DNA of 63,881 bases, filler included, from Sluysia triapertura (taxonomy: Eukaryota): the NCBI GenBank assembly GCA_046118255.1. It is 5 parts of 5 records of this genome, joined end to end, with 100 filler letters (N's around TTAATTAATTAA, not from the genome) between each part and the next. Parts side by side here need not be neighbours in the genome. Positions count along the whole stretch, not along the records: positions 28,303 to 39,857 come from JBJNIA010183424.1; 4 more parts are not named here. One strand, given 5' to 3'. Numbering within the stretch: position 1 is the stretch's first letter; each line of letters starts with the position of its first letter. This document shows positions 8,489 to 62,712 of the stretch, in pieces. The notes under the pieces are model-generated. The model saw only the letters and a list, made by a program, of their open reading frames with translations, had not been told where the DNA came from and did not search any database. Both the position numbers and the translations under genes were made by a program.

Positions 8489-8492
8489 TTAA

Positions 8493-8903: not shown

Positions 8904-9047
8904 TTAATAAAGAAACGATAAAAAAGATTCTTTTGTGATGGGAATTTATGTAATAACGAAATTTTATTTTTTCATTTTCATCAATATATTACGGAAATGA
9001 AATGCATTATCATTAATTATAATTATAATAATATCGATTTAATTATA

Positions 9048-11841: not shown

Positions 11842-12248
11842 GTTAAATTTCCAATCGCATATTCATTGATTGTATATCGTGATCCAGATCAAGTTTACAG
11901 ACTTTTCAAAGCCATTTATCGTCCATTCAATCTTTATTGTTTCCATGTCGACTCGAAAAGTTCCTCTTCTCTGCATCGATTTGTACAAGAATTACATTCT
12001 CTTTATGACAATGTAATTGTACCTTCTAAATTCATTGATGTGGTGCACTCTAAATTCAGTGTACTGGAAGCAGAGTTATTGTGTATGCGTGCACTTTTAA
12101 ATTATTCAGAACAATTTTCATGGAAACCAGCAGCCCAATGGAAATATTTCATCAATTTAACTGGCCAAGAGTGGCCATTGAAAGTAAACCTAGAAATAGT
12201 CAGAATTCTGAAAAGTCTTCGTGGAGCTAATTTGGTGGAGAAGTTGAA
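11842..12248 (+). CDS. GCNT: Exon of a core-2/I-branching beta-1,6-N-acetylglucosaminyltransferase (GT14/Branch family)
   Basis: FPIAYSLIVYRD..RLFKAIYRPFNLYCFHVDSKS and WKYFINLTGQEWPLKVNLEIVRILK are Branch-domain hallmarks. Acceptor tttcag|GTT at 11841/11842; donor AA|gtaaat at 12248/12249. Confidence 0.92.
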
Positions 12249-12414
12249 GTAAATAATTTTATACAAATTGAATTTATTGCGATTTTAAATATGAAATTAA
12301 ATTTTTAATACTATCTCCTTTCAAACATGATTGTCACGTTAGTTTTCTATACAATATATATATATATGTAAGTATAGTTGAAAATAATGTTTTATATTAT
12401 AGATTAATGACAAA

Positions 12415-26399: not shown

Positions 26400-27060
26400 T
26401 ATTAATTATTAAACAAAAATGTCAGCAATTTTTTTTAGTTTATTGTATTAAGTCACGGATATAAGACATATATCCACGTAAAATCTACGTAAATTTATTT
26501 TGTAACTATTTTTCAAAAATGATCTTATAATAGATCTTTCGAAAAATCTTTATTAAAATATTGTCGTTTTAGGAATTAAATTGATTAAATTAATTCTCGT
26601 AAATTAGTTATTTTATTACCTTTATATTTCATTTGTAACTTTTGTTATCCATTATTTAATAAATTTTTCTTTTAAGTAATTATTTTTTCATTGATAAATT
26701 CTATAGTTTCAATTATAAAATACCCAGTAGATTAAAGATTTCAAGGATTAGAATTTAACTCTAATCACGTAAAATCATTTTTATAGATCCTTTTCATAGG
26801 ATCTTCGTAAAATACCCTCCAAATCATTTCTATTTTTTCAGTTAATAACATTTATAAATTTAATATCGTTAACACTTAACTTTTATTGAAATACCTCCAT
26901 CATTAAACTACATTTAAAAAATTAGTAGTAAGGTTGTTAAGTCAAGAACATCCTAATAAAACTATACACACTTTAGACATTTTTTCTAACCTTTAAATCT
27001 TTTATCTACAAATCCAGCGGACTCACGTTAAAATCCTATTTTATTCTAAGAATCTTCAAA
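26400..27060 (-). mobile_element. Family L1 LTR; left boundary approximate, right end rearranged
   Basis: Shares internal motifs (acgtaaaat..gatcc..ggatc..cg.aaaat) and the terminal tttattcta..cttca(c/a)a with 47518-48613 and 48810-49846. Confidence 0.65.
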
Positions 27061-28202
27061 TAGATGTTTGTAACTGAACCAAAGAATTTACACAAGATTT
27101 ATCATATCTTTGGTTCAGTTACAAACCTCTATGTGAAGATTCTTAGAATAAAATAGGATTTTAACGTGAGTCCGCAAACGTACTAGGCTTACCAGTTAGG
27201 GCTAGCAAAGCACTAGCAAGACATTGACTTTAAACGGCTTCCGATTTGCGCAAAGTGGAAATAAAGAATCATTTTCACACAAAAAAGCAGAAATATAAGA
27301 AAATTATGAATTATCCGTGGAACTAGCGTTAAAACACTAAATGTGGTCCAGAAAATAAAATTGTATAAAGAAACTGCAAGCGTACTATGTATATTATTTA
27401 AGTTCAATTCGCGAATGCTAAGAATATCAAAGGAACTAGTCATTATCTAGTAAGAATAAAATTTACATAGAGAAAGAAGACCTCCATTGTAGCTCTATTT
27501 ATGTATGTTTTATTTTTGTTACTCTCATCTTATTGCTTCTCTCCGACTGTGCGTTTTTGGTTTTTTGTTGTATTCATATTTTTATCTAAAGTATTTATTT
27601 GGGAATTTGATATAATAAGTCGTAGTCTACATTATTTTGTTTTTAAGTTTGAAGAACCTATAAGGTACCTTAAGTACCTTTTAATAAATCATTTAATGTA
27701 ATCGATATTTGTTTGATATTATATGATAAAATGATAATTACAATAATTTTTAACTTTACAATGTCAACTCGAGCATTTTCAAATATCGTTTTCGAAATTT
27801 TATTTTCTGAATCAGATTCTTAAATAACTTGATCAAAAACAATAACGATTCAAAAGTAAAAAGTGAAAAAATCCTTTTACATTTAATTGCTAAAAATTTT
27901 CATTTTATAAACATCGTGTGGACGTCTAGTTATTTTAGCTTTAAATTGTTATTTTACTGCTGAAATTGTAAATATTATTTAAATATTATTTCATTGAGGC
28001 ATAATAATCTATACAGAATCCACAGTGATAATAATCAAGCTATTTATGTATCAAAAATATACAATCAATTACCAGAGAATGTCAAATTACTGGAAGATTA
28101 TGAAATATTTACGAAAAAGGCAAATTTCTTTCTGTTTCAGAAATATTATGGTGAATGATTTACCTTAAGCACTTTTGAGTACTTACGCAGTAGATATGAG
28201 CG

Positions 28203-28302
28203 NNNNNNNNNNNNNNNNNNNNNNNNNNNNNNNNNNNNNNNNNNNNTTAATTAATTAANNNNNNNNNNNNNNNNNNNNNNNNNNNNNNNNNNNNNNNNNN
28301 NN
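28203..28302. other. Assembly spacer
   Basis: N44-TTAATTAATTAA-N44. Confidence 0.99.
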
Positions 28303-28399
28303 CAAGTTTGGTATAAAACGTATATACTAGGCGAACTGACCTTTCAGATAATTTGTTAAGTATAAGGAAATACTAGCAAATTGTATTGAATAAAAACCA

Positions 28400-30973
28400 T
28401 TTAAAAACTCAAAACTTAAATCAATGATGACGAACATTTTAGTTTTAAACTTTACCTTTAAATATTTGACCCCGCTCTTCCACCAAGGCTTCTGCTGCAC
28501 TTCTCGGTTTGTTTTGAAATATTTACAAACTAAATCAAGAATTAAATTATACGAAAAACTGATACTTACAAAATCATTTTTAACTCAGTCATGTTGGTGG
28601 TATGTTTAAGATGCGATTGTTCTGCTTCTAATGGGTATGAGCCATGGTCTAATTGCGTAGGATCATTTTTATTATTTGTTGATAGAACTTGATTAAATTT
28701 TTTTTTGTTTATAGGCATGCAACATTTCGGATCACTTGATTTACTAAAAGAATTCGTCATTTATTCTTGAAGGGTATTTCGTTGCAGATAACTTATGACT
28801 GAATTGGCCTAATTTTTAACTGTTATAATCGAGTTTATCATAATAGCATTAATGAGTTCGTAGTTTTCTGAGGAGTTTTCATCGGAAAAGTGTTGCTTTA
28901 TATTATGACATAAATCGTGTTTTTATTCCTTAATACTCTTTAATGTATTGTTGAAATTTATCATATAGTCATTCTATAATCTTCTTCAGAATTAACATCC
29001 GTATCATTACCAATTCTATTCGTGTCATAGATATCATCATTGTTATTTTTATTACCATTAGTAGTGGTATTATTTAAATAACAAATAAGATTAGTATCCT
29101 TTGGATCCATGAAGGTACTATAATCATTACTTGTAATAATTTCTTTATAATTATCAAACGGAGTTTTAATTTTCATTAAAGAACTTAGTCGTTTTGTAAT
29201 AGATAGATTAGTGATAGTAAATTGATAATAAGTTCTAGGACACAACGGAGTGTCTATCGACATGGATTTATTTTCCACATTAGTACTAATGACATCTTGA
29301 TCGGTATAATTGATAGGTGTAACTAAATTATTTCGAACAGTCAATGGAAAAAATCGTGTCAAATTCAGACGAACATAGTTCATAATGAAATTCAAATAAT
29401 TTTCATCTTTCACTTTATTATATGAATAATAGTAATGTGGCAAAGTATTACTGTGATTATTAGACCATGATTTCATGATGTTTGATTCTATGTTTTTATA
29501 ACATTTATCTTCTAAAAGCTTTTTAAAAACATCAAGTCCATTAACACCGATAGAACTTTCAAAAATTAAACAAAGTGAATTGTTGGCAACATTTTTTAGT
29601 TCATGTACTGAAATAGTTACTTTTTCATCATCTGGAGTATGAAACATTACAATATCGTTCGAATGAAACGCTTTGTCATTTACGTACTGATTAACTAATT
29701 CAGTATCTGGTATTTTCGTAAATTTCTGGTCCATGAAAATTAACATCACATAAAATTGTTTTTTAACTAGACAAAATCATGATTGTTGAAAAGAGAAATT
29801 TTTAATTGAGAATACAATTTTTAATAGTGACAGAGAATTTTTTTGTAAATGAGTTTAATTTTTATTGCTCTAAAGTTTTTTAATTCGTTTAAAACTTTAG
29901 AAATCTCGTTAATGAATGGTTCTGGTTGATTGTCCAATCACGACTCCGACAAAAATTGTAATCAGAGATATCAGTCGCGATTGGACATCAATGTCATGTT
30001 GTGAATTGTGATGGCAAGTTGATAAAAATAATGAATAAAATGTCACTATTGATGATGGTGACAACAAAAAATAATTTAATACATAAAATTAATTGATGAT
30101 TGGTAAAAATAATAACAGTAATATTATTGTTATCATTATTATTAATAAATAAAAGTAATCTGCATAATTATTTCTTTTTGCTTACAAACCACACGATCTT
30201 TCTTTTTAAATTCTTAATCTTCTACATATTAAATAAAAAGAAATAAAACTGATAACATGTTGTGAAGGAATAACAGCATCGAGGTAGATTACGTTTCAGT
30301 TGTCGTTGTTGCTTCTTGTTGAGATAATGAATTGTTTAAAGCTTAATTGTTTATCTTTAAATGAAATAGGAATGAATCGGGTATGTTAGGAAAGCTTATT
30401 GAAATTTATTAAAAGTTTGTAATTTAAGCCCTAAATGTGATAGTTTGAGATGCTTAATGAAAGGTTTTAGTTTATTCACTTTTAAGCGACGATTACAAAA
30501 TAAATCGTAATATATTATAATGTTGTTACGAATAAATGTTGATGATACATATGTATATATGAAGTAGATTTAGCCTGGTGGAGTTGGTTAAAGATTGTAA
30601 TATGAAAGTTTTCTATTTGTGAGGTACTTATTAATATTGTTAAGTGATGCTGATGTATTTCTGATTTCTGTATTATGTATTATGGTTGTGGTTTGTTTGA
30701 TAAAATATCTTATGAGTGAGTACTGTGATTTATTCGAGATTAAATGTCGGAGTTTGTTGTGATGTGAATGGTTAAAAGTGTTAGTCGAATTGTTGATGTG
30801 TGTGGGTTAATGAGATGTTATAAATATCGAGTGTTGTTTATGATAATTGAGTTGGTGTAGTTCGATAGGGAGAAGTGTGATTGCTTTATAGTTTATGTTT
30901 CATTGAAATTTAGATTATGATTACTTGATGTTATGTTTTAAAAGGTTTAAGGTTGTGAGTGTTGGCCACTACA
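28400..30973 (-). mobile_element. Unclassified element, TGTAGTGGCCAACA family (copy A), carrying an orphan ORF; left end approximate
   Basis: Terminus shared with 57744 and 17092. Non-coding 29900-30970 is colinear with 56500-57744. ORF 29749-28961 has a disrupted continuation to about 28566. Confidence 0.7.
28961..29749 (-). CDS. 262-aa intronless ORF of unknown function inside element A
   Basis: A long ORF in AT-rich DNA; weak ordered similarity to the degraded ORF of element B. Confidence 0.5.
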   Translation of the reverse strand: MMLIFMDQKFTKIPDTELVNQYVNDKAFHSNDIVMFHTPDDEKVTISVHELKNVANNSLCLIFESSIGVNGLDVFKKLLEDKCYKNIESNIMKSWSNNHSNTLPHYYYSYNKVKDENYLNFIMNYVRLNLTRFFPLTVRNNLVTPINYTDQDVISTNVENKSMSIDTPLCPRTYYQFTITNLSITKRLSSLMKIKTPFDNYKEIITSNDYSTFMDPKDTNLICYLNNTTTNGNKNNNDDIYDTNRIGNDTDVNSEEDYRMTI

Positions 30974-33900
30974 ATCGGGTTTGCCTATAGTTGACGATTT
31001 ACGCTTATGCGACGTCCCCATAGGATTTAACTATTATATAACGAGAACTATTATTAAATCGTGATAATTCTTATCATATTTTAAAATTTATTAATAGATT
31101 AGATTTATCTCTTCTGTAATCTTTTATTTATTTTATAACCAATTAAAACTTGTCAATTATTAATCTTGGAAAATTATCCGATCTTATTCTTACGAGGTTA
31201 ACTTATCTTTCTTTTGATTTAATTATAAAAACGAGTTAAAGATAAAAAGGTTTATTTAATTCTTTTCATATATTTTATATTATTTATTATCTTAATCTTT
31301 GCTATCTGTTCTCTCTTAAACATGTCCTTTTTATTCAATAATTTTGTTCGTTAATTGTCTACCAAAACAAAATCTAACAACTTGGATATTATATTATCAA
31401 ACTTTCGTAAAATAAATTGAATATAATTATAATTCACAATTAAAGGTACAGAGTTCTAAAATACATAATTTACTTTAAGACAATATAAAAATAACAAAAT
31501 ATAACAGATATAAAAGTTATTAAGTGTAGTAAAGCTCTAATATTAATGAAGATTTTATCAATCAAATTATCTCTAACAAAAAATTAGAGATGTTTTTTTA
31601 TTAAGTATTTTGAGTAAAAAATTATGCTTTAGTAAACTAAGTCAAAACTTACTACTATGAAACTTACGAAATTTTTTTGTTTAATAATTGAATGGATAGC
31701 TGGTCACAATAATGTTTCCAATTACCAATGCTTCGAGTCACGCATCAATTTAAAATCACGTGCCAGTCAAACTTATATACCACTTGAAATCACAAGCAAA
31801 TTACCAATTATGAATAGCATACCACAATTTACTGTTTTGCCCAATTACGAACAAGTATCACAAATTATTAATTTATGAATATCAATGGTAGCGTTCGCGA
31901 CAATAGTTTAAAACTTTCGTTGTGAGTTGTATTTTATATTCATTTGAACCTTTTCATATCCATTCAATTGTTTGCTTTCTTTAAATTTCAAGAAATTTCA
32001 ATTAAGATATTAAAATTAATGGATTCATATTAATTTAATGAGGTTTTATTTATTTATTTAGAAAACAAATATTTGTTTTCTAGAGCAGTTTATAATTAAT
32101 TATCATTAGTTTATAATTATAATTTTAATTATTTCAGATTCTTGATTGACACGAAAACCTTACAGTTGTAACAGTTTCAACTGCTAGATCTATAAGGTGA
32201 CGAGCTGATAAAAGACAAAGCGCTGAATATTACGAGTCAGATATTGTAAATGATAATAAAATTAAATTAATACAAGGCCAAAATTTATATTAGCAATAAC
32301 ATTTTATCTGAGCTTACAAAATAAATGTATAGGGCTCTTTAGGTTTTCAAAATTTCCAAAGGACGGCTATTGGTTTGAGTAGCGTTTTCAAATTTTTGTT
32401 ACTTTGTTAAAACTTCTTTTCCTTTTATAGACGTTATCTCTGAACTTACGCTTGATATTTAATTTTACTTTTAATCACTATTTTTCACTTATTAAAATGC
32501 TTAATTTAACTGTTCTCTTGACATATTAATGAAAATGCTAACACAAGAAAATGTACTCTAGTATTTTAATTGGATCTTAGCTAGCATGAAATAATTGTAC
32601 ATTTTGGGTAATATTTTATTTCTTCCTTAAGGAAGATAGACTCTTCAAAATAAACTTACAAAAATATGGATTCCAAAATACGATCAAATGAATTCCTCGA
32701 ATATCAGTGAAACCTTTAATGTTTACACAATAATAGAAATCTTAATATTTTTCTTTTCTTATGCGTTTGATTTTTTGTGGCTTCTATGTATATATTTTTG
32801 AACAGCAGCATTTGTTAATTTTATGTCCACTTTAATTTATTAAATTTTGGAACCGTTACTTCACATAAATTTAATTCATTTATTTAAAAATGTTAATTTT
32901 ATGTTAAGTACAATCTAATATTAATAAACTAGTTTTCAAATAAATTATTAATAATTTTTAAATGGTAAATTTTAAAGGTATATTAGTTTAATGTTTTTGT
33001 TTAGAGTATTTTAGTACTATAGAAATTGATAACTCATCTCATGAAAATCGTATTCGAAAGCCATATCCTTTCATTGATACTTGTATTTGCATAGTTTATT
33101 TATCAGAAAACGTTTATCAGAGTTATGGTTTCATCAATTACTTACAATGCTAGATATTGGTAAAATTTACGATATTTCAGTGAATTATCATAAAAAATAA
33201 GAAAAAAATATTTGAAGATTCAGTTTAGAACTATTCTGGCTCATATTCCAAACATTTTTTAAAGTTGTATCAACGCTTATTATTATATGATTCGAAAAAT
33301 AAAATGCTTAAACCCGTTTATGCATTTCATACTGATATTCATGACTGCTGTGTTACGATATCCATATTTATATCTCCAAATCAATCATTGATGAAATTCA
33401 ATCTAAAATGCAGAGAAATGTCAGTTTTTGTAACATTGTTCATATGCCTGTGACAATAAATTCCATAGTCTGTGTTGATAGTGTTGAATTATTAGTTATT
33501 AGTTGAATTATTGTTATGAGGCATCGCAAAAACGAAAGTAGAGATTAGTACTTTGTCCAAACATATTGAATTGAATGAGTTACAACGTAAAGCTTACAAT
33601 ATACCAACGAGTAACGGCTATAATACTGCTTATTATTAGCCCATTAATTGACTCACAAAAATTTTATAAAATTTAAAGAAAAATAATCACTAGAGAATTT
33701 TTAGATATTAATTGGACAGTTTTATGAATGGCAAATAGTGTCATCCGTGAAATAGAGTGGAAAGTAAAGCTTTATTGAAGAGATGATGCACAGCCTCTGA
33801 AATGTTGAATTTTTAATTTTCATACACTTTGTAAATATTTTAATAAATGTCTTGAATTTAGGCCATCTAGGCTATTAGATTAAAAATATATGAATATTAA

Positions 33901-36373: not shown

Positions 36374-37483
36374 TGTGAGAAAAGTAATATGAAACTTATA
36401 GAATAAACTTATAGTAAAAGCTTAACCAACATACTGGACTTACCAGATAGGGTCAGCCGTTGGATTTGTAGATAAAAGTAAAAAGAATTTTCTCAAAATG
36501 CAACATTAATTGAAAGCTTCTTTATTTGGTTTTATTATTATTATTTTTTTTACATCGTTTTAAAAAGTCTAGAGGTATATAGTCAAAAATAATTTAATTG
36601 ATATTTTACGTAGATTCTATGAAAAGGATCGTTAATAAGTATTTTACATTGTTAGAATTAAAACCTGACTATGAAAATCTTTTTCGTGGTACTGATTTTA
36701 TATTTAAAACTATTTAATAATAACGAAGAAATGTTATGGGAAATTTTAGTAAACAATGATTAAAAGACTTTGTTACACAAATAAAAAATAAAAGGTAATA
36801 ATAAAATTTAAGAAGAATTACTTTAAGTAATTCTTATTTCATTAATATTTTAGTAAAAGATTTTACGTGGATCTGTTGCAAGATCCAAAGTAAATATTAA
36901 ATTTACGTGGATTTTTCGTTGATATCACTAGGATATCTGAAATTATTATAAATAAACTAACGGTTATTTTATTGATCAAAGGTAAATCTGTTCAAAAGTT
37001 TTTATTTTGATTTCCGATGTATCGAAGCAAAACCACTCATCAAGTATACCAAAAATTTATTGTCACAGCTTTGTTGTCAAAAAATTTATTATCGAAAAGC
37101 TATTATCAAAAAATTGTTTATTGATATTGTGAAACTGAAATTTATTTGTTCATTATATGTAGGTTTATTGACCTTGACCAGATTTGAATTTTAATTTAAA
37201 ATAAAAATATAAATTTTAGATTTTAAAAATTAAATGAAAATTATTTACAAAAATATATCTATAAATTTTAAAAACAAAATTAATATTTAAAACATTTACA
37301 ATAAAATATTTACAAAAATAAAAAATAAAACATACTTTTAAATAAAAATTTAAAATAATTGATTGAATATTGTTGGAATTATTATAAAATAGTCAATAAT
37401 TTAGTATAAAGTTAACACATAAATCAATTGTTTGAATATCAATAATTTAGTATAAAGTTCAAAATAACACACTTAATATAACA
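36374..37483 (+). mobile_element. Solo LTR (family L1)
   Basis: ATAT|TGTGAGAAA...TATAACA|ATAT: TG..CA ends, 4-bp TSD, 1110 bp, CCAAC..GTTGG hairpin near the start. Confidence 0.8.
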
Positions 37484-40057: not shown

Positions 40058-40129
40058 GGACTGATAGCTCAGTGGTACAGCATCGAACTGCGCAACGAGA
40101 GGTCCCGGGTTTGATCCCTAGTCAGTCCA
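40058..40129 (+). tRNA. tRNA-like gene, pseudogene or SINE head (Cys-like body, GCG at the anticodon position)
   Basis: Perfect 7-bp acceptor stem GGACTGA/TCAGTCC-A, A box TAGCTCAGTGG, B-box-like GGTTTGATCC, 72 nt, TTTT directly downstream. The anticodon and T stems are mispaired. Confidence 0.7.
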
Positions 40130-41574
40130 TTTTATGAAGTTTAACAATAATGTTACCGGTTATTGCTGATAAAGATTATCTGCAATTTCCTTTTAAAAAT
40201 TAATTTATGTAGGTAATGTACTAAAAATTACTAGAAAATAAATAAACAAGTTCATTTGTAATGTTATAACTTTAATTAAAACAGTTTAACTAATAAAGTT
40301 GAAACTAACGAATATTCAAGATATATTGGACAGCAAAATTGTGGTTAAGGACTTTTTGAAAATAAATTTAATGCAACTTTGTAGATAAAATTTCTCTCGA
40401 TAATTTAATATAGTTCTTTTCAGATTAATTGATCAGATCAATTGAAGTAAAACGTTTTAACGAAAGTTGTATAAATAAAAATGTAAATACAGTTGAATGA
40501 ATGCTTGTGAATAATTCTATTTATACTTAGTTACCTTATTGTACTATTTAATTGATTTAAATAACAATAAAATAATTGTAATACTTATAATTTGTAAAAA
40601 TATATAATAATATTAAAATAATGTAATTTTAATAAAAATATATTTTTAATAACATAATAATAATAGTAAGTAACGTAATAATATAATTATTATTTTTTTA
40701 GAGAAAAAACAACTATTTGAAATACATAACATTAATTTATACGAAATTAATTACATAACTTAATGAAAATTACATAATTACTTAAGCTTACACCATCTTG
40801 AAAAGGTAATTAAATATGTCTTATTATTAATATCAGGTTGTCAAGAGTGAAATTTGTATAACTTACAAACATAAGGAATTATTTTATTCATAAATGTTTA
40901 TATCTATGTATTTAAGCAGTAGGTTGTTCAGAACCTTGATAGCAATTATTAATGAAGTTATTTTTGGATGCAGTTATTAATCAAGTTGAAGTTATTGTCT
41001 TGCTTGTGAAAATAATAAAATTAAAAATTGCTTTAATTTAATAATTTCGTATGATATTAAATATTTATGTTATTTTTAGATAAGTTTGTTTTAAAATAAC
41101 TCAACAACAATAAATTGGGCAGGGATCCTCTCGAAAATCTACTTATCAGTATTCCAACAAAATATAGTAATTAAGAAAAAATCAATTAAAAATTCCCCAA
41201 AAAATTTTATTTATATTAATAATCAAATAATAAAATTAAATTAGTAACGTAGTTCAAAACCTTACCCAAACTATGGATCATCTTAATAATTGCATCATTA
41301 ATTGATTGTGTGATTGTGTAAAAAAATTTTAAGTTTTTCATTTCATACTTTTTCATCATCCAATCAATCTTGAGTTTCACAATTAAACACTTACAGAAAT
41401 AATCAAAACCTCTTTGAGAGTTAGAGCTATCTGTTAAACTTTATTAGGTACAAAGCACAAAAATTTAATTAATGATCAACTATTATTTTCTTCTATTCTA
41501 GTTGATCTATTTTTACTTAAATTACTTCTGTCATTAAAATAACAATATTGTTTACATACATAAAAATAATGAAA

Positions 41575-44277
41575 TTGATTTTAGTTTTTAGAATTTAATT
41601 GATTTTCGGGTTTTCACACCAAATTTTCTAATGAAAAATGTTTAACGTTCTTATTCTCAAACAAGCTATTCTACAAAAATATTAAACTCACTTCTAAATT
41701 CTCATTTTTCATATCAATCATTTCATATTAAATTCATTATATTTTCATCATTCTAAGTATTAAAAATTCAACATTCCATAATTTTCTTATATGAACTCGG
41801 TCAAACTATACTTTCATCGAAAGATCTTTTCGAATTTAACATATCATTCCGCATTCAAACATTATTCAAAAAACGTACTTTTTCTTAATTAAGTTAATTA
41901 AGAAATTAATTAATTAATCAATTTTTAGACTTAATCCTATTTATCTTCATAAGATTCTCAGGAGATTTTAGATATTTTCACCTTCACCACTCTGACTCCT
42001 TTTTCTACTTCTTTACGTTAATTACTACCCTATTAAATTTATCTTTAATATTAGCAATGATTTTATTAATATTAGTGATTTTATTTCTCCAATTTTTTAA
42101 AGATTTTGGCTACTTTATAAGGTCTTTGTAGTGAACTCAAGCTCAAAACACTCTAATTGTGAACACAATCGTAAATAAACATCAGCAGAAACCAACACAT
42201 TCATTGGAAATTAAATCTTAAACAAACTTCAAAACAATTTCACAAAAAATATCAAATCAAATAAAAACAAAACACAAATACAATTTTTATAACATTAAAC
42301 GCCTCAAAACCTTATAATTCTGGTTATAATTCGTTGTACCGATTTTTGTCAACATTACTGCTATGTCATTGTTGTTCTTTAAAATCATTAATTGTACTAT
42401 TTTATCTTCATTTTATTTTTATGTCCTGAAAGATTTTGTTTCAGTACTGTAACCCAAATGCCTTATCATAAACCCTGTGCTAATTATAATTTTCCTCAAA
42501 AGCCAAATCATTTCTGTCAGTATGTACAAGTGCTCGAAACACATGAAGATTGGAGTAATTATTGCATACCATAATAATCAAACTGAAGATTTTACAACGT
42601 CAAATTTTAAATGAACAATACGATCACAAACTGGATCACATGCTGAAAAATACTGAAACGGAAGAACAAGAGATATATAAAATACACACAATCAATTCAA
42701 CTAATAATATCGAGTTACCATTAAATTAATTACTATTAAATCGATTTAATAGATTTAGTACTGAAATTAGTGGCTGGTCAGATGAACCAATTTGACAGTC
42801 ACTGGTTATTTTTTACAGAAGATCGTTGGATGTACATACTAATCGTTCGTAGTCATTATCTGATGTTAAGAAGAAAATAGAGGATAATAAATTGAGAATT
42901 ATGAGACAACAATAGTAACATATACTTTTCTGACTATAATAATCAGGATTTTGAAGAATTTAGACAATGTATATATAGTTTCAATAATGATGACAATAAT
43001 AATGACTACGATAATAATAATAATAATAATAATTAATGGGTATTAAAATATAATAGTTATGATTACTGTTAACTGATAAAAATAATAATAATAATAATTT
43101 AATTAATTACAATAAATTATCTACTGATAACTTTGATTAGTTTCAAAATAATTTAATTATTATAAATTCATCTGAATTTTCAAAAAAATACTAATCAAAA
43201 AAGTTTTATTAGCTTCATCATCAGCATCATGAAACCTCAAATTACAAAAAATTACAGATATAAACGTGGATTTGCCGTGAAAAATGTGTATCAAGCCCTA
43301 TTATAATTTGAAATATATTTTATGAATAACTTTATAAAATTTGTTGTGTAATAATTATTTTATGGGTCGTACTACGTATTATGACATTGTTATTATTTCT
43401 CTATTTATAACATAAATTTGATTTTATAGTTAAAAATAATGCTAATAAATTAAATAGTCATAAACGAACGATTTTTATAAAGTTATTAGTAAAAGTAAAT
43501 ATTTTTATTAACTAAATACTAAAATTGCTTTTATAAATAAAGAAAATTTGATATTGGAAATTGAAAAACATTTTACTTTAACTAATTAAATTATAACCAT
43601 GAATTTAAAAGAAAAATTGAATAGTATTTCATGAAATAACACAACACTTGGAACTTGCAATATTGGTTAAATTTCCTATTGAAATTTATTTTAAAATATT
43701 TTTTTGTTTGAACATTTACGATCTGTGTTATTTATAACATTATAATAAATAGTTAATTGAGTTTGAAATTGCGCAATTCGAGTAATTTTTGCAACGAACT
43801 TCAAGGAAACTTCTGTTCAACATGAACAATGTAATAAAATTAAGAAACAATATGAAAATTTAGCAATTTTGTATGTAAACATTTTTCGTAATTCGTCACT
43901 TATGGTTCACTTAGCTTTAAATGTAAGTAAAATTGGCCACTTGATAACTAGTAAAATGCCACAAGCTGTCATTAAGATCATAGGCGAAGTTAAGTGTCGA
44001 ATTTCTTTAAGTATGCTCTAGTCTTAAATGCTTATTGAGGTTTCAAAGGTTCTTAAAGGTTAATAAGGTCTTTGATAATCTCATGGTTCAAATGAATCCT
44101 AATGCCTTTAAATGTTTTCCAAGGTATTCTGAAGCTTCCACAATTTCATATGGGTCTTTTGAACTTCAAGATATTCCTCAATTGTCAATGTTTCTATAGA
44201 TGTTTTAATCTTCATGATTCTTACTCCAACAGTATCTGTAATATTCTCTTGACCCACAGTTTTGGGCAATCCCAATT
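41575..44277 (-). repeat. Repeat family R1 copy split by a ~1.9 kb insertion (about 42127-44020)
   Basis: 44277-44025 matches the first part and 42122-41575 the continuation of R1 in reverse orientation. Confidence 0.65.
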
Positions 44278-47200
44278 GCATAAAAAGATAAACATAAAAC
44301 AGCTTTTTCATGAATTCGAAAAAATTCCATATGGATTGATATGCGCATGAGAAAAGTTTCAAATAAGTATGAATTTTGTATGTAATTAAACGTGTAATTG
44401 TCAAAATTGTTTGTTGGATTTAGTCAAAGATAAGGGTTATAGTTTATAGTATAAGATAAAAGTAAGTGTTATTGAGGAAATACAATTAAGCATTACGACG
44501 AAATGCGTTAAAGGAATAAGTGTATAAAACATTTAAATCAAAATAAAAGAAAGATGCGAAAAGATAACCTTTTAAAAGGCTTTACTTGTTAAAATATAAA
44601 AGTGCATTTATTATTTAATTTAATTTAATATTGTTTAATTTAATAAATTTCTTGAAAATGTTTGCACATGATAAAATAACATTAGAATTAATGTGTAGCG
44701 TTGAATTTTATTAGTATTCCTAATGTTGAAATGTTGCAAAAATGTCGACGCAGATAACGCAAATAATTAGTTATTTTAATTAGTTTTTATAACGTAAGAT
44801 TAAATTTATACAAGTAGCAGAGCATAAGTATAATTAAAATACATATTAAATTGGTGCTCACGAAGATGCACGGTTGATTCATGATGTATTGCATAAAAAG
44901 CTTTCTCTAGAAAAAAATTTAGTATTTAATCAGTTTTGTTTATTTTAAGTTAACATGTTAATAACAAATGCTATAGTTAAGTAAACATATGTTAATAATA
45001 AAATCCTATAGGAGACATTTATTAGGTCATAAACTATTCATTATAAGCGAATTTCTATTTTGAGGTAAGCAAATTTTACGAAAATTCTTGTTACTTTAAT
45101 AATATTGCTATGGTTTATGCTTAAAAAAAGTTTAAACCTATACTTGCAAAATAGTTTTCTGGAGGTGAGTTTGCCTAATAACTACGACTCATTTCTGATC
45201 GAAAGCGGTCTATTAGGATTTTGTCTAAAGGCATAAGAATGTCTTGTAAGAAGATATTAGTTCTATATCTGTAATTATAATATTTTAATTATATATAATG
45301 TACATTCAAAAATTTGTCCTTGTGTTTAAGATAAATATCGTGAAATAATACGTCTTGAATTTTATATAATATATTAAAAATGTAAATTAAAATAGCAGAA
45401 TTATGGTCTAGTTTTCCGAAATAAATTGAGCTAGCCGGTTATGGTCTAGCCTGAAAAATCAAAAGTATATTTTAGAATTCTAAAATTAAAATTAGCTTGT
45501 TTAAGGTTTAATCAAAATAGTTCAACAATTTAATAATAATACAAATTAAACATTATTATTAATACAAACTCAAAGACAAAAAACGTAACATAAAACGTAG
45601 GTAAAATATATAATATTGATATGATTTTAGTCTTAATATTCAGAATCTACTTTTCTGATATTAAATTTAATTAATTTAATTTAAAATTAAGATCTAGCGT
45701 ATCTCAAAAATGATTTTACGTGTAAATATCAATTCTTCTAATTATAGTAAGAGTAAAACTTATTAGAAACTAACTTACTAGTTCATGGATTTTCTTTTGA
45801 CTGCCTAAAACCGGTGCTGAATTTTGTCAGAAAATTAGGTGTTAAATATTTGTGTATTATTATAAAGAATTCCCTCTACTTATATTGTAAATTGCCATCT
45901 TGTTTTTTAATAAAATTTTGAAATTATTTTTTAAACATTTAATTTATTAATTATTTAAAATATTAATGATTTAATAATTTATATTTTACTTACTAATTTT
46001 TTTGTTTAATTTTATGTTTATAATAAATATAAATATTTTAAGTAAAGCATTAAAAATATATAAACATTAAAACAAAAATATTTACGTAATATTTATAAAT
46101 ACACAAATAACAATATTGTAATTATATTATCATTTTTGTTATTACTATTTTCAATATTTTTTAAATTTATAATACTTACTGTACAAATATAATTTAAAAT
46201 AGCTAATAATCTTAAAATAGAATTACTTGCAAAAGAATATCAGTAATTTTAAAATTATCTTAAACATCCTCAAATAAAAGAAATTAAAAATAGAATGCAA
46301 GAAACATACATTCGGCCTCACCAAAATTACTTTCAAAGTTCAGGTTACAGATTTGTTAGTAACACCAGAAAAACAGAAAATCCATCATTGAAATAAAATA
46401 TGTTCAAATAAAAAATACAAACCAACATATAATAACTAATGCAAACTACATAACTACAATTAAATGAATTGTAATTTGGCAAAATCAATGTGGAAAATTA
46501 ATTATATAAGTATAATTAACCATATTATTACACATGCATTCGAATCATTTACATCAGTGGTGTCAAACACATAGCCCAAGGCTTGATAACAATGTATAAA
46601 ATAAGTTTATTTTAGGATTAGATTGAAATTTTAATTTAAGCATTTTAATGTTAAACATTTGAAAGGGCATTTGAGCGCCCCTTTTAAGTCGGTAACATCG
46701 ATAAAGTAGATCGTACCAAAGAGTCTTGCAATCGTTTTTTTGACAGTTTCTTCGCAGTTGCAAATTTCAGGTATAATTTCCCTAATTTATTAAAACTCAT
46801 CAAATAATTGACCGTAAGTTTTAATTAAATTAGAGAGAATTCAACTAGGAGTGAAAAATCATAGTATCAATGTTTCATAATTATTTAGAAAATTGGTTTA
46901 ATCATAGATTTTTGTATAAAATCTTGATTAAGTGTTTAATTTCTAAAGACATGTTTATATTGCATATAAATAAAACAGTGTTATTTATGTTTATTTTTCA
47001 GAAAATAAAAATTATGTCTGCTTGTAAAAATAATAAAAAAGATCAATACAAGGCGAACACAGAATTTTTCAGCCAAGATGAGAGTTAAATTACTTTTTTA
47101 TAGAGCTAAAAGACAAAGCTGCATGTTTAATTTGTAAAAAGACTTTAAATGTTTTTAAAGAATATAATTTAAAACGCCATTATGAAATGCATTCAGAATG

Positions 47201-47517: not shown

Positions 47518-48613
47518 TGTAACATATAACACACATATTGATACACACATATTGATACACACTTATTGATACATTTATTGATTATACATTTGTTGATTTG
47601 ATTTATTGTGAGACATACATTTATTGATTATTTGTGAACATATTAGTCATTTCGCATTGTAATTACTTATTATTTATCATTTTTGGAAAGTATATTTTTA
47701 AATTAAATGTAAGTTTCAATAAGTTTTGTCTAATTTATTAATTTTGTTTCTGAAAATTAATTAATATAAAATCTTTAATTAAACTTTTGAAAATTAATTA
47801 AACTAACGTAAAATAGAACAAATTTATAAAATAAGTCTATTGTTTCAATAAATTAATTTCTAAAATCTGAAGGTCAGATTAAAACAAGTATAAATTCTGC
47901 AAATATTTCTCAATTCATCGCAAGAGTGAACGAACACAATTTTTAGCAATTTTTAACATTCTTCGATTTTGGTCGAGACTTAAAATTCCTAGCTGAATTC
48001 TTTCAAGTTTTATTTATCGTCTTACGTTAGTTTAATTATTTTTAGGACTGATACCTTTGTGTATCAAGCGTAAATTTTTACTTAAAATCATTTTAATCAT
48101 TTTAGGATCTTATAATAGATCCAACGAAAAATATTTTAATAAAATCTTTTGTATTATTCATTAACTCAAGAATTAATTAGTGTAAATTGTTATTTTTATT
48201 ATTTGTCATTGTACACTTAGAAGTAAAGGTCCTAAATAAATCATTTGCAATTAATTTTTGTTTCCGATTTAATTTACATAGTTTTAATTATAAAATCTAT
48301 CGTTTAGAAAAGTTTTAAATCTAACTTAGAATTTAAATTTAACAACGTAAAATAAAATTATAGATTCCATTTCAAAGAATCAACGGAAAATCATTTAATT
48401 AACGTTATCATTATTAACTTTTGAGAAAATTAATTTAATTAATATTTTTGAATGAACGTTAAAAACTTACCTCCAGATAGTTAAGGATAAAGCATTTCTT
48501 TTAGCATTATCCCACACTCATATTCTCAAATCTAACGGCTGGCCCTAACAGGTAAGTCTATTACGTTGCTAAACTTTCGCTTTATTCTATTTTTACTTTA
48601 AATATTTCCCATA
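47518..48613 (-). mobile_element. Solo LTR (family L1) inserted in the hAT transposase
   Basis: TATT|TGTAAC...TTTCCCATA|TATT (or a 6-bp TATATT TSD ending at CA 48611). Excision restores the in-frame sequence NNLRYIQHFSIAIDETTD. Confidence 0.85.
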
Positions 48614-48809: not shown

Positions 48810-49846
48810 TGAAACGAATGAAGTGTGTGTAATATAAATATAAACTATCAATAGATTATGTGACTTTGTGAACTTTATTATTGGTTTAAATGATTTGTTA
48901 AATTATTATTGATTTAAAATTTGTAATTCTCATATGATCATTGATTATATTGATTAATTGATTTATTTTTATCTGGAAATTATTAATTATTTCTAACTTT
49001 CATTGTAAGTAATTATTTAATTCTAATTTTATTTATTTAATTTTAATTTTAATTCTATATTTAATTTAAATTCTAATATTAAACTAACATAAAACATAAA
49101 CTTTTAAAATTAAAAAAGTTTTTAGCATTTGTTTTAATTAAATTATTTTAACATTTGTTTTAATCCGATCAAGGTCGGATTGAAACTATATAAATATACA
49201 GAATTTTTCAATTGAAACTCACAAAAATTTTATAAAAATTTTCTTCGAAGATTATCTGAACATACCCATTCAGTTCCAACTATGCTACGATACTTTTTAC
49301 ATTCAATATTTTTTCAAAACTACGTTAGTTTAATTATTATAAGGGCGATACCTCAGCGTATCACAGGTAAAATCTTACTTAAAATCATTTTAATTAATTA
49401 ACTTTCGTAGTTAATTTGGTAAAATTTGTATTATTACTATAAATTTGTGTACATTTTTTGAATATTTTTGTAAAGAATGTATTACTAACCATTAATTTTT
49501 GTTCATATCATAACTGTTATAGTTTTAACTATAAACTTGATTGTTTTATATGTTTTCAAAGGCCAGAATTTATCTCTAGCAACGTAAAATACAATCTAAA
49601 GATTCCATATAAATGAATCCACGAAAAATCATCGAATAAACTTTATTATTATTAATTTTTAAAGAAAATTTAATTAACATCATTACTCTTAAAAGATTTA
49701 AATAAGCTTTGAAGTTTTCAGTAGCTCTTGAGATTTTCTTTTGATTTACCAAATTCAACAGCTGGCCCTAACTAGTAAGTCCAGTACGTTGGTGAACTCA
49801 CGCTAAACTTTCGCTTTATTCTATTATACTACTTTACTTTCTCACA
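48810..49846 (-). mobile_element. Solo LTR (family L1) inserted in the hAT transposase
   Basis: TCTC|TGAAAC...TTTCTCACA|TCTC. Excision restores the in-frame sequence KHNLFLPKLVCLATDGA. Confidence 0.88.
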
Positions 49847-54879: not shown

Positions 54880-57744
54880 CTACCACGTCTTGCCACATGA
54901 CTTGGAGCCTTCTCTGGAGATTATTTAAATTAAATAATTTTGATGAATTTAAAATAAAAAAATAAAATTTTACTAAGAATACCTTGTTGGAGTAAATGTC
55001 TTCATCTCCTTCTCCATCTTTAACTATGACTAAATTTGTAGTTACTTTTTGTTCATTTATTGTTCCGTGTTAATTTCTCGAAGCATATTACTGGAATTTG
55101 TAATGAACATGTGTTTTTTATATTCATTATACTAAGGCTTAGACAACTTTGGACTACTATAGCGTCCTTCTGGCTAACTAAGTGCTGATAATGATTGAAT
55201 TTTTTAACCATTTGTATTATTTTACTTATGAATATAATATTATCTTTTAGAATCATATACAAAACATGTTTTGCAATATTACTCGTCTGTTTATCTATTT
55301 CTACATTTAATCGTTCAACTTTATATGCATTTTCGACATTTAATCGTTTAACTTTATATACATCCTTGACGTCTAATCGCCCAACTCTACATACATCCTT
55401 GACAATTAGTCGCTTAACTCTATCTGCATCTATAACATTTTCACATTTCACTGTTTGGGCCACATTACCCATCATACACTCACTAATTGAAAATTTAACA
55501 GTTTAGTCATGACAATGCTTTATAACTTGATTCGGAACATTAGCTATGGTTAAATTAAACAATTTACTAACAGGGATCGATTGGCGAGTCATCAGATATT
55601 CACCTATTAAAATTAATGAACAACTACCTGTTTTTAATATTAGACTCACATTTTGAAGCAGTTTCAAATTAATTGTTGTGACATTCAAATGATCACACAA
55701 ATCTTTTATTATTCTTGCATAGTTACAATTCCATCTAAATTATTTTTACATACCTTTCGGTATCTTTTAACATTTCTTGTTGAAGATGATGGAACAATTG
55801 GATCCAAAGCCCATGGTAACAAAATAGTCACGGAGTGATAACTATTCATCGAAATGGTCGGCTTAAACTTGTTTTACAAACTAGTGCATTTGATCCAAAT
55901 CCAGATGATTGTCTTTCTGAACATAATTTGCTAATAGTATTAGTCATAAATTGTTAATAATTGAACTTCCACCTTGTTTATATTGTATGTCTAATGGTAA
56001 TATCATTGTGGAATTTGATATTGGCATTTCATGATAATACGTCTTCGAACTTTGATCCCGACTGTGACTTGCATTTTGTACAAAGTAATTTCGTGTAAAT
56101 TCTGGGTGCTAGTTTAGTCGTAACGTTACTTTATTTGACAGAAAGTATTGCATCCGAGATGTACTTATATGACTGTATTGATGATAATCAGAATTTTCGT
56201 TAATAACGATGCTACTTGTACTATATGTTGATAACGTTACAATATAAGCGATAAAATAAGCGATTTCTCGAAGTCGAATCTGTTTGTAACGTTAATTTTT
56301 CATTATTTTGAATATTGAACAATCTTGGGATAGATTCATCATGAGTAAAAGAAATTAAAACATCATTTCTTCGTGAATTAAATTCAGCATAATTCGATAA
56401 TTCATTAAAATTCATTTTTGTCTTAATTTTTTGGAATTTTTTTTACTTTACTTTAGCCTTTCCATTTTTCTATTTTTTATTCGTCAAATTATTATTAGTT
56501 TTTAATTTTTTAGGTACATATTCATAATGTAGTGTTATTATTGGTCATCCAATCAGGCATTTAAAAAAAGATAGATGAATAAAGTAGGTCCTGATTGGAT
56601 GATGTGTAGTATGAGTGATATTGTACTGCTAAATCATTACTACTGATGATTGACCATCATCAGTATTGACATGCTAATGAAAAATGTGATACGTAATGTC
56701 AATACTGATGGTGGTAATAACCACTTTTAATGATTAATAATTTATTTTATAAATAATTGAGTAGTTTGATAATAATAATAATAACAATAATAATATTGTT
56801 ATAACAATAATAATATTGTTATTATTATTAACAAAGAAAACGAAGAAAAACACAGAAATCCTGTTCTAAATATCTAACACGATCTTTTCTTTAATTATTC
56901 TCTTTATTTCTAACATATTTTAGCTTTAAATAACAAGAAGATGATAAATTTGGATGTAGTAACAACAATAATGAGATGTACGATGTTCAAGTTATTGTTG
57001 TTATTGCATTGCATAGAAATGAATTGGTAAGCCTTGATAATAATTGATTTAAGTAGTGAAATAAAATAGAGAATGTTAGGATGATTTCTTAGATCTTAGA
57101 TCTTAAATCTTAGTTTTTCTTAAATTTCTACTAAATTTCTACAATATTAAAATGAATTAAAGCTGTATTTTGGGATAGGTTTCCGAGTAATATTTGTTTG
57201 AAAATGGATTGGTAAGTATAATTAACTTGTGAAGATATAATAAATGATTTGAGTCGAAAATGGAATAGAGGATATTAATATAAGTTCTTGGAATTTAATT
57301 GAGGTTTATACTTGAAAACAGGATCTATGCATTGAAATATTGTGAATAAAAAGGTTTATTAAGAAAGTTATAATTTATTGAATTTAAAAGGGTAATTACA
57401 ATATAAATCTTTGTATATTTAAGATGTTATTATGCTACGTTTTATGTGATTATTTTGTTTGGTGTTTTTAGTCTTGATGTTAAATATATTTGTGGTTTAT
57501 ATGTTGTAAGTTTATGATTGTGGTTCGATTTACGAGAATAAACTATTAAATGAATGTTATCGATTGTTAGATATTAATTGCCAAAATGTAGTGTAAGATA
57601 AAGAGTTTGGGAGTATTAGATGTATTATTTCGAATGAGTTTATTGTTAGGTTATTTGTGAGTGTCGAGTTATGTTTTTTGTGAATTAGTTAATGTTAATT
57701 GATAATGTTGAATATGATTGTGATTATGAGTGTTGGCCACCACA
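54880..57744 (-). mobile_element. Unclassified element, TGTAGTGGCCAACA family (copy B), with a degraded orphan ORF at 56415-55053; left end approximate
   Basis: Terminus TGTGGTGGCCAACACTCA, leader colinear with copy A, ORF pieces 56415-56221, 55700-55503 and 55475-55053 on the same strand. Confidence 0.7.
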
Positions 57745-62087: not shown

Positions 62088-62208
62088 GTCAGAGTAAAAG
62101 TTGCGAAACCGAAAAATCGTAAAAACTAATTTAAAAATAAAACCAAAACAGAAAGTCTGAGTTAAACCACACTCGGTTCAATCATTTATCAGTAAACAAG
62201 TAGTATTA

Positions 62209-62580: not shown

Positions 62581-62712
62581 TTCCTTAGTATAAACTTCGA
62601 ATTTGCCTACACTTCAGGAAATAAGCGCTGCAATCGAGAGTTCTAGTGATTCTGTGACATCGATGGATGAATATTCAGATTCTCAGGAATAGTTTAAGAC
62701 CATCCCAGTATT

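What the first reader, a model, noticed from the sequence alone, without database searches (positions are those of the whole stretch)
28400..30973. Unclassified element family: TGTAGTGGCCAACA terminus, ~1.2 kb leader and an orphan ORF
Seen: three copies end identically (17092, 30973, 57744). Copies A and B are strongly diverged yet colinear across the leader (acacgatctt, tgataa, aaca..gttgttg, aatgaattg, atgttagga), and both lead into an inward-reading ORF at a similar distance. The ORFs share weak ordered motifs (VRLN/LRLN, TYYQF/NY*QF, TPFD..NDY/RPFD..RDY, HDLCHNI/KDLCDHL). No gag, RT, integrase, transposase, PBS or second terminus is visible. Inference: either very long ORF-containing LTRs or ends of giant Gypsy-like elements (giant LTR elements are known in planarians), or a TGT-ended DNA element (Ginger-like) carrying an undescribed protein family.
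Basis: partly seen in the sequence, partly recalled or inferred. Interest (0 to 1): 0.75.

Follow-up and report, generated by a model that had tools for sequence, protein, structure and literature searches.

The report
Retrotransposon carrying backwards GSK3 gene fragment
This repeat is likely the tail end of an LTR retrotransposon in an AT-rich animal (probably a flatworm), and it carries, on the opposite strand, an open gene whose first half is a decayed piece of the host signalling kinase GSK3, which suggests that such backwards extra genes can be built from captured host genes.

Summary
The three shared ends are real (3 found, 0.12 expected). On the + strand, copies A and B read: purine-rich tract, TGTTAGGA (30384/57074), then ...CCAC(T/C)ACA (30973/57744). 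These are 590/671-bp 3' LTRs, and contig depth jumps inside this interval. The ORF therefore lies antisense in the 3' internal region, not inside a giant LTR.

ORF A is not an orphan. Residues ~19-144 match the GSK3 kinase N-lobe (E 9e-8 against 1.84 billion proteins; 1.5e-8 against PDB). The Gly loop is lost, and there is no HRD, DFG or C-lobe similarity. Copy B's broken ORF weakly matches a PDE5/6 GAF domain (E 0.001). A-B ORF homology is only weakly supported (0-4 of 100 shuffles reach it; not significant in a local test). No gag-pol is linked to these copies, and expression and function are untested.

Verdict: a new variant of a known kind, the plant/fungal antisense 3' ORF layout in an animal, with a recognisable host origin.

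The parts
30384..30973 (+). Copy A LTR, 590 bp, TGTTAGGA...CCACTACA; read as the 3' LTR
   Evidence: ends; A-B global score 66, best of 200 shuffles 43; all 13 listed sites inside have depth 2,164-85,022; all 21 listed sites to the left have 169-1,479.
30359..30383 (+). Purine-rich, PPT-like tract before the LTR of A
   Evidence: 15 of 20 and 19 of 25 purines; 2.6% of 1282 TGTNR sites in the window reach 15/20
29747..30358 (.). Non-coding 3' internal region conserved with copy B; likely holds the antisense promoter (inferred)
   Evidence: z 7-9; score 134, best of 200 shuffles 26
29931..29987 (.). Inverted repeat with a TCCAATC/GATTGGA core (15-bp arms, 27-nt spacer), aligned with the one in B; three arm pairs differ between copies yet still pair
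   Evidence: z -2.8/-4.4; 3 of 5 such repeats in the window lie in the A/B leaders; 0-1 in 5 shuffled windows
28961..29746 (-). Antisense ORF of copy A (ATG at 29746 or 29734; 257 aa from the second)
   Evidence: 5-17 contigs of the laid run carry each listed difference, so the ORF is multicopy
29303..29680 (-). GSK3-derived part (N-lobe, hinge, alphaD; aa ~19-144). Gly loop reads ANNSLC; the Lys/Glu pair is kept; no HRD, DFG or APE in the ORF
   Evidence: (E 1.2e-15 to a profile of the 39 hits)
28569..28960 (-). Possible broken continuation of the ORF in another frame, with internal stops; GAF-like motifs seen by eye only
   Evidence: copies differ in length just before the ORF stop; no search support
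28303..28380 (.). Different high-copy repeat at the contig edge; copy A cannot be followed past it (gap at 28203-28302)
   Evidence: bin depth 114,453; matches window ~5427-5484
57074..57744 (+). Copy B LTR, 671 bp, TGTTAGGA...CCACCACA
57049..57073 (+). Purine-rich, PPT-like tract before the LTR of B
   Evidence: 16 of 20 purines; 0.7% of 1282 TGTNR sites reach this
56545..56602 (.). Copy B inverted repeat TCATCCAATCAGG/CCTGATTGGATGA
   Evidence: (z about -6)
56653..56715 (.). Second inverted repeat in B (20-bp arms); only one arm is recognisable in A
55056..56415 (-). Broken antisense ORF of copy B (~450 codons; frame changes and stops, e.g. at 56111, 55946-55742, 55505)
55191..55718 (-). PDE5/PDE6 GAF-A-like part of B, with a 33-nt tandem repeat (55298-55429) made from a GAF segment
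   Evidence: E 0.0012; E 0.0011; top 5 of 7 hits PDE5/6; E 0.011; no Pfam GAF hit
16834..17092 (+). Copy C: last ~260 bp of a related LTR, abutting another repeat
   Evidence: (z 13-18)

Best explanation
The locus is likely the 3' end of a Ty3/Gypsy-type LTR retrotransposon: a ~600-bp LTR preceded by a purine-rich tract, a conserved ~630-bp non-coding stretch, and an antisense open frame whose first half matches the N-lobe of the kinase GSK3, likely captured from a host mRNA and predicted to be catalytically dead. Shown: the sequence layout in two diverged copies, the depth step, the GSK3 match and the missing catalytic motifs. Inferred: (1) gag-pol lies or lay further left, beyond the gap or the neighbouring repeat. 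(2) The paired CCAAT/ATTGG inverted repeat ~190 bp before the ATG is part of the ORF's own antisense promoter, as for maize Grande gene23. (3) The ORF was assembled from pieces of host signalling genes (GSK3, then probably a phosphodiesterase GAF domain) by template switching during reverse transcription. (4) It was kept open by selection on the element while it diverged fast, and acts as a non-enzymatic accessory (binding or decoy) protein and/or antisense RNA that tunes the element's replication or its host cell. Copy A is a decaying member of a subfamily of roughly tens of copies; copy B is a more decayed member of a sister subfamily.
For: LTR: inner TGTNR at aligned positions in A and B, each after a purine-rich tract in the top 2.6% and 0.7% of 1282 TGTNR sites. 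TGTNR is the Gypsy/Ginger end pattern (PMC2836005). In one search every listed site inside 30384-30973 is deeper (2,164-85,022) than every listed site to its left (169-1,479), as expected with solo LTRs; contigs identical to the flank have depth 14-18. GSK3 origin: 39 hits at E<=1e-3. 30 of 30 scanned are Pkinase. Of 20 looked up, 8 carry names, all kinase or unnamed-protein labels, 3 naming GSK3 or tau kinase. All 51 PDB hits are GSK3-family or Ser/Thr kinases. The end-to-end score against P0001 is 111, best shuffle -4. mRNA/exon-bounded capture: the match is colinear without introns and ends at PINYT, where 5 of 39 hits (P0004, P0007, P0027, P0034, P0038; read by eye) leave the kinase sequence after YxK-V, the mark of a conserved intron. 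Selection: 271 open codons in 25%-GC DNA (shuffles reach 134) at ~30% identity to GSK3. Host: the best hit is a schistosome protein. ORF A shares a one-residue-shorter beta2-beta3 loop with 4 of 34 scorable hits, two of them the trematode pair P0001/P0014. Layout precedent: PMC7264820.
Against: No 5' LTR, PBS, gag, RT or integrase is linked to A, B or C. Pfam found none in 87 stop-free frames (whole-frame scans failed on size), and no TSD pair was found. The only genome evidence is summed contig depth from one run of unrecorded type, possibly the window's own source; the tool says this is no copy number. Bins 29953-30252 are also high (5.6k, 10.4k); I put that down to an AAT microsatellite without testing it. 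The PPT-like tracts are A-rich and imperfect. A-B ORF homology is weak, and B shows no direct GSK3 similarity. The GAF match is E ~1e-3 with no Pfam support. The 11 listed differences inside ORF A are 3 synonymous and 8 non-synonymous, which looks neutral; they mark copy A against most other copies and do not test the active lineage. Both AlphaFold models are poor (pLDDT 36 and 33). The tree cannot place ORF A. Transcription, promoter activity and protein function are untested.
Confidence: 0.7

Rival explanations
1. Same LTR element, but the ORF is inert passenger DNA: a GSK3 fragment captured once and carried along, with only antisense RNA (or nothing) mattering.
For: Copy A's listed differences look neutral (3 synonymous, 8 non-synonymous). 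B is broken in many places. The catalytic motifs are gone, and the second half of ORF A matches nothing. PMC7264820 allows an RNA-only role.
Against: About 70% of residues changed from GSK3 with no stop in 257 codons is unlikely under neutral decay in 25%-GC DNA (inference; one search gives the random baseline). The start position is kept in two subfamilies only ~60% alike.
Confidence: 0.15
2. A TGT-ended cut-and-paste DNA element (Ginger-like, Pack-type) with long subterminal regions that captures host gene pieces; A and B could be different ends or derivatives.
For: TGTNR end pattern is shared with Ginger; short G/T-rich motifs recur near the end; no retroelement enzyme is linked.
Against: No inverted copy of the end in the window. 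Flanks fit neither Ginger target preference. Shared sequence (~1.1 kb) far exceeds 40-270-bp TIRs. An inner TGTNR with a purine tract and a depth step are not predicted by this model.
Confidence: 0.07
3. The whole >2.6 kb is one giant ORF-containing LTR of a Burro-like element, and TGTTAGGA is just an internal motif.
For: Burro elements have long LTRs (internal region up to 25 kb, total >30 kb) and host-like domains (PMC6431247). A stops at a contig gap.
Against: Depth falls 10-60-fold left of ~30400, whereas a single LTR should be evenly represented. A purine tract plus TGTNR sits exactly there in both copies.
Confidence: 0.06
4. ORF A is a host GSK3 retrocopy or exon into whose neighbourhood an LTR fragment inserted; the adjacency is chance.
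For: A and B cargo match different host genes by direct search.
Against: The ORF zone is multicopy at the same depth as the adjoining non-coding stretch. The same spacing recurs in B, and the end-to-end A-B test is weakly positive.
Confidence: 0.02

Closest known systems
Antisense additional ORFs between pol and the 3' LTR (aORF-3R): maize Grande gene23, rice RIRE2, Silene Retand, bean PvRetro13, fungal Boty (PMC7264820; parts 1-2 of 3 read, the whole main text)
   Same: Antisense ORF in the 3' internal region, reading away from the 3' LTR, present in many copies; Grande's has its own upstream promoter.
   Different: Animal host. The review says these ORFs show no clear similarity to host proteins, that their origin is mostly unknown, and that transduced genes are usually in sense. 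Here the ORF is recognisably GSK3-derived (and probably GAF-derived). The pol link and transcription are not shown here.
Burro/GYPSM1 giant Gypsy elements of planarians (PMC6431247, section 7 read; Grohme 2018 not available)
   Same: Probably the same kind of AT-rich host; Gypsy-type ends; host-like regulatory cargo (BIR, BCL2, MATH, ankyrin, SUMO-like) and accessory ORFs.
   Different: The section read lists no kinase or GAF domain and no antisense 3' ORF. The LTR here is ~0.6 kb, whereas the quoted sizes imply kb-long Burro LTRs (my inference). Element length is unknown here.
Bdelloid rotifer LTR retrotransposons with non-env ORF3 (GDSL esterase, DEDDy exonuclease; PMC5408684, passages)
   Same: Animal Gypsy-like elements with family-specific extra ORFs after pol.
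   Different: Those keep their catalytic residues and are described as ORF3 downstream of pol; 'kinase' does not occur in that paper. Here the ORF is antisense and catalytically degenerate.
GSK3/shaggy kinases (best hit: a Heterobilharzia GSK3-like protein; human GSK3 alpha/beta in PDB)
   Same: N-lobe, hinge and alphaD are colinear at 28-39% identity; the KK.L.DK..KN.E and DE.YLN motifs are kept.
   Different: Gly-rich loop lost, the Arg of KNRE replaced, no HRD/DFG/APE, no C-lobe similarity (99 of 100 shuffles score as well).
Ginger1/Ginger2 DNA transposons (PMC2836005, passages)
   Same: TGTNR terminus; extra host-like domains.
   Different: Short TIRs, specific TSD sequences and a transposase, none of which is seen here.

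Membership tests
LTR retrotransposon (Ty3/Gypsy-type) | LTR bounded by TG(TNR)...CA | tested here: met
   TGTTAGGA...ACA in A (590 bp) and B (671 bp)
LTR retrotransposon (Ty3/Gypsy-type) | Polypurine tract next to the 3' LTR | tested here: met
   15/20 and 16/20 purines, top 2.6% and 0.7% of 1282 TGTNR sites; imperfect, A-rich
LTR retrotransposon (Ty3/Gypsy-type) | LTR more abundant than the internal region (two per element, solo LTRs) | tested here: met
   13 of 13 listed LTR sites are deeper than 21 of 21 listed internal sites (40 of 365 rows shown); depth is only a rough measure
LTR retrotransposon (Ty3/Gypsy-type) | Two direct LTRs, PBS after the 5' LTR, TSD | not testable with these tools
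   No genome held; A ends at a gap; no second LTR or TSD pair within the contigs
LTR retrotransposon (Ty3/Gypsy-type) | gag-pol with PR-RT-RH-IN order linked to the LTR | tested here: inconclusive
   None in 87 stop-free frames by Pfam; a Ty3-like integrase remnant at 61506-62126 lies on the wrong side of B's 3' LTR to belong to it
aORF-3R (antisense ORF between pol and 3' LTR) | ORF antisense to the element, in the 3' internal region | tested here: met
   ORF on the - strand starting 638-659 bp inside the PPT/LTR junction in A and B; rests on the LTR reading
aORF-3R (antisense ORF between pol and 3' LTR) | Present in many copies of the family | tested here: met
   5-17 contigs per listed site, depth 169-1,479 against 14-18 for contigs identical to the flank
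aORF-3R (antisense ORF between pol and 3' LTR) | Antisense transcription from its own promoter | not testable with these tools
   No RNA holder listed
Burro/GYPSM1 | Length >30 kb with a giant gag-env-pol polyprotein bearing BIR/BCL2/MATH domains | not testable with these tools
   Internal region not assembled here; no Burro sequence available to compare
Burro/GYPSM1 | Multi-kb LTRs (inferred from the sizes quoted in PMC6431247) | tested here: not met
   590 and 671 bp
Ginger1/Ginger2 | TSD CCGG/CCGT (Ginger1) or RTATAY target (Ginger2) | tested here: not met
   Flanks ATCGGG, ATTACA, TGCTGT
Ginger1/Ginger2 | 40-270-bp TIRs and an integrase-like transposase | tested here: inconclusive
   No inverted end in the window; the far ends are missing
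Active GSK3 kinase | GxGxxG loop, HRD, DFG, C-lobe | tested here: not met
   ANNSLC in place of GNGSFG; no HRD/DFG/APE; C-lobe test negative
GSK3-derived sequence | Significant, family-specific similarity to GSK3 | tested here: met
PDE GAF-A domain (copy B) | Colinear similarity across the GAF domain | tested here: inconclusive
   E 0.001 to PDE5, 0.011 to PDE6, ordered stretches; no Pfam GAF hit; fold unusable

The most novel reading that the evidence does not exclude
A flatworm lineage of Gypsy elements builds antisense accessory genes out of host signalling modules: a GSK3 N-lobe fused to a cyclic-nucleotide-sensing GAF domain, under an own CCAAT-pair promoter. A neighbouring Gypsy remnant carries a Wntless/TMEM181-like ORF. 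The proteins act as decoys or sensors that tie the element to Wnt/cGMP signalling in stem cells, giving the first traceable origin for antisense 3' ORFs and a route by which transposons could touch body-axis signalling in regenerating worms.
Probability: 0.15. Interest if true: 0.85.

Novelty: new variant of a known kind. Interest (0 to 1): 0.58.

Why it matters
The review of antisense 3' ORFs in LTR retrotransposons (PMC7264820) says their origin is mostly unknown because they resemble no host gene, and that captured genes usually lie in sense. This element shows the layout in an animal, with a traceable source (GSK3, probably also a PDE GAF domain) and a break point at a likely exon boundary. 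That makes the capture hypothesis directly testable across tens of copies. If the host is a planarian, a transposon-borne GSK3 derivative also matters in practice: it can confuse kinase annotation and RNAi design, and it may interact with Wnt signalling, which sets head-tail polarity (own knowledge). None of 10 literature searches (open-licence PMC and bioRxiv only) showed a GSK3- or GAF-bearing LTR element in its listing. Repbase, Dfam and Grohme 2018 with its supplement could not be seen and may already hold the family.

Tried and rejected
No whole genome is held, so genome-wide end and TSD mapping was not possible.

Homolog searches. Word-index searches with ORF A (near and longer lengths) and with B's read-through frame found nothing; only full phmmer did. 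The ESM Atlas gave no usable hit for ORF A. Weak Pfam and PDB rows were taken as chance: DUF1961, Viral_alk_exo (E 0.001-0.004, over the tandem repeat), UbiD, RNF180_C, EspG (0.024), and a metalloproteinase (0.55). A dUTPase reading of B's SGFGS motif (recalled motif) found no support in Pfam or PDB.

GSK3 and GAF cross-tests. GSK3 similarity in B is negative by profile, hhalign and frameshift-aware tests. GAF similarity in A's tail is seen by eye only: LCH.I..H and CMPI, compared with the PDE5 letters printed. It is negative.

Structure and tree. The AlphaFold models (pLDDT 36 and 33) are unusable; Foldseek on the first gave only GSK3 rows at E>=0.02, and that model was built on a GSK3 alignment, so it is not independent. 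The tree could not place ORF A.

Collection scans. The terminus pattern gave 2 metagenome matches, both chance, and 0 viral matches. The GSK3 alignment found no viral locus. Rfam found nothing in the hairpins, so a miRNA-like reading has no support. No RNA holder was listed. Earlier findings of the scan: nothing.

Other element classes. A CACTA reading was rejected because CACTACA points outwards. A Helitron reading was rejected because there is no CTRR end (recalled feature), and a Polinton reading because there is no AG end (recalled feature).
Full report
Setting. The window is ~25% GC eukaryotic DNA in five contigs separated by 100-bp gaps. No genome is held. The host is probably a flatworm. 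The best protein hit is from a schistosome, and ORF A shares a one-residue-shorter loop with 4 of 34 scorable hits, two of them trematode proteins that form a 100/100 clade. A tree could not place ORF A itself, so the host remains an inference.

The observation. The 14-mer occurs three times, all on the - strand, against 0.12 expected. I call the copies C (17092), A (30973) and B (57744). C shares only ~260 bp. A and B share ~1.1 kb at ~59-60% identity, above 200 of 200 block shuffles in both halves. No DNA similarity remains in the ORF zone. ORF A is open for 271 codons, and shuffled windows reach at most 134. B's frame is broken many times. A-B protein homology is not significant locally (5 of 150 shuffles, 3 of 74 other stretches). 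It is weakly positive end to end (0, 1, 4 and 2 of 100 shuffles over two matrices and two shuffle types; 0 of 130 other stretches). The end-to-end test was chosen after the local one failed.

The second terminus. Each is preceded by a purine-rich tract: 15 and 16 of 20 bases, reached by 2.6% and 0.7% of 1282 TGTNR sites in the window. From there to ...CCAC(T/C)ACA is 590 bp in A and 671 bp in B. One public run held the stretch, and its contigs were laid on 28303-32800 at >=80% likeness. Of the 40 difference rows shown (of 365), the 13 inside 30384-30973 have depth 2,164-85,022, the 21 to the left 169-1,479, and the 6 in the right flank 35-47. Long contigs identical to the flank have depth 14-18. 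The bin spanning 30384 (10,987) fits a step there (6,100-12,000 predicted). Against this, bins 29953-30252 are also high, probably through an AAT microsatellite (untested); the tool warns that summed depth is no copy number; and the run may be the window's own source. Read roughly, the LTR has hundreds to thousands of near relatives and the ORF-bearing interior tens. This is the pattern of a 3' LTR with its PPT plus many solo or shared LTRs. No PBS follows any of the three ends (sequence), and no TSD pair or second LTR lies in the contigs. No gag or pol is linked: Pfam on 16 + 71 stop-free frames found none, and whole-frame scans did not run.

The ORF is not an orphan. phmmer against 1.84 billion proteins gave 39 hits at E<=1e-3, best 9.3e-8, all within residues 17-151. 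All 30 that I scanned are protein kinases. Of the 20 looked up, 8 carry names, three of them GSK3 or tau kinase. The 51 PDB hits are GSK3 or close kinases (best 1.5e-8). A profile of the 39 hits finds only ORF A in the window (E 1.2e-15). The alignment keeps the KK, KN.E and DE.YLN motifs and the hinge. The Gly loop reads ANNSLC, and HRD, DFG and APE are absent. The second half has no similarity to the GSK3 C-lobe (99 of 100 shuffles score as well) or to anything else. An active kinase is excluded by standard kinase chemistry. The Axin-binding surface lies in the missing C-lobe (recalled), so a simple dominant-negative role in the destruction complex is not likely. The match ends at PINYT, the place where 5 of 39 hits leave the kinase sequence after YxK-V (read by eye). 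That is the signature of a conserved intron, so the captured piece seems to end at an exon boundary and to lack introns. Other copies differ in length close to the ORF's stop, so the frame may be broken there and may once have run on to ~28570.

Copy B. Read with X at stops, its distal part matches the GAF-A domain of PDE5 (E 0.0011-0.0012) and PDE6 (E 0.011-0.08) in ordered stretches, and its 33-nt tandem repeat is an amplified GAF segment. Pfam does not confirm this and the fold is unusable. B shows no direct GSK3 similarity. A's tail has GAF-like words by eye only (negative). So either the ancestral ORF was a GSK3-GAF chimera that decayed differently in the two subfamilies, or the cargo differs between them. 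I put the chimera at about even odds.

The non-coding stretch. A and B hold an aligned inverted repeat with a TCCAATC/GATTGGA core. Three arm pairs differ between the copies yet still pair. Three of the 5 such repeats in the window lie in these two stretches; shuffles give 0-1, and fold z-scores are -2.8 to -6.0. Two sequences cannot separate selection from local conversion, and Rfam has no match. The repeat ends ~130-200 bp before the ATGs and consists of two opposed CCAAT boxes, so I read it as part of an antisense promoter; this is inference.

How it most likely works. A Gypsy-type element transposes with gag-pol lying left of what is assembled. Its 3' internal region carries an antisense gene with its own promoter, built by capture of host mRNA pieces and then diverging fast while staying open. 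About 70% change without a stop in such AT-rich DNA is hard to get neutrally (inference). The 11 listed differences in ORF A (3 synonymous, 8 not) look neutral, but they describe this one copy's decay. The product would be a non-enzymatic accessory protein, or the RNA may matter more. Confidence: LTR reading ~0.85, Gypsy type ~0.7, selection on the protein ~0.7, retained GSK3-related activity on host signalling ~0.15.

Comparison. The layout is that of plant and fungal aORF-3R elements (Grande, RIRE2, Retand, Boty), for which PMC7264820 (main text read) reports no clear host homologs and an unknown origin. Planarian Burro elements carry host-like domains, but the section read (PMC6431247) names no kinase, GAF or antisense 3' ORF, and their LTRs seem much longer. 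Grohme 2018 and its supplement could not be read. Rotifer ORF3s are catalytic (PMC5408684, passages). Passages of PMC8532177, PMC11410931, PMC13524379 and PMC8220671 added nothing specific, apart from env-bearing Gypsy elements being reported in flatworms. Ginger fails on target sequence. It works like an aORF-3R element; membership of any named family is not shown.

Verdict. A real feature: an ordinary-sized LTR with an unusual, traceable antisense cargo. New variant of a known kind; interest 0.58.

Noticed in passing
window 61506-63835 (+): A separate Gypsy remnant: broken Ty3-like integrase (E 9.5e-5 to Ty3 Gag-Pol), then a protease-like frame (62161-62577; by eye, no PDB or Pfam support), a 263-aa membrane-protein ORF (62698-63486) and a 100-aa ORF. 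The Atlas puts the 263-aa ORF nearest Wntless-like/TMEM181 clusters (score 0.93, 207 of 256 features, PF06664 on 39% of members, but low recognition); no PDB hit. It may be a second host-derived, Wnt-related cargo. Same orientation as the three LTRs.
   Followed up: partly
window 15923-16833 and 22894-23864: Two copies of another repeat, 86% identical; the first abuts and truncates LTR fragment C. Class not determined.
   Followed up: no
window 28303-28380, 5427-5514, 45155-45222: Short pieces of a very high-copy repeat (bin depth 114,453).
   Followed up: partly
window 27017-27175: Near-perfect ~160-bp foldback, MITE-like; one arm also matches 49761-49823.
   Followed up: no
window 11830-12252 (+): Core-2/I-branching glycosyltransferase exon (Pfam Branch, E 3e-19).
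   Followed up: no
window 21331-21858 (-): Frame with an ankyrin repeat (E 6e-4), probably a host exon.
   Followed up: no
window 12415-13113 and 13417-14256 (-): Two long open frames (232 and ~280 aa) without a Pfam match; host exons or other cargo, left of copy C across a gap.
   Followed up: no
window 40058-40129 (+): tRNA-like sequence at the Rfam threshold (33.5 bits), not called by ARAGORN; perhaps a SINE head or pseudogene.
   Followed up: no
window 59785-60150 (-): 121-aa frame with a short tandem peptide repeat (HLVKRYDNDDYK twice).
   Followed up: no
window 9388-10140 / 41328-42065, 26470-26814 / 36602-36962 / 48023-48600 / 49321-49836: Further old interspersed repeats at 65-70% identity.
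   Followed up: no
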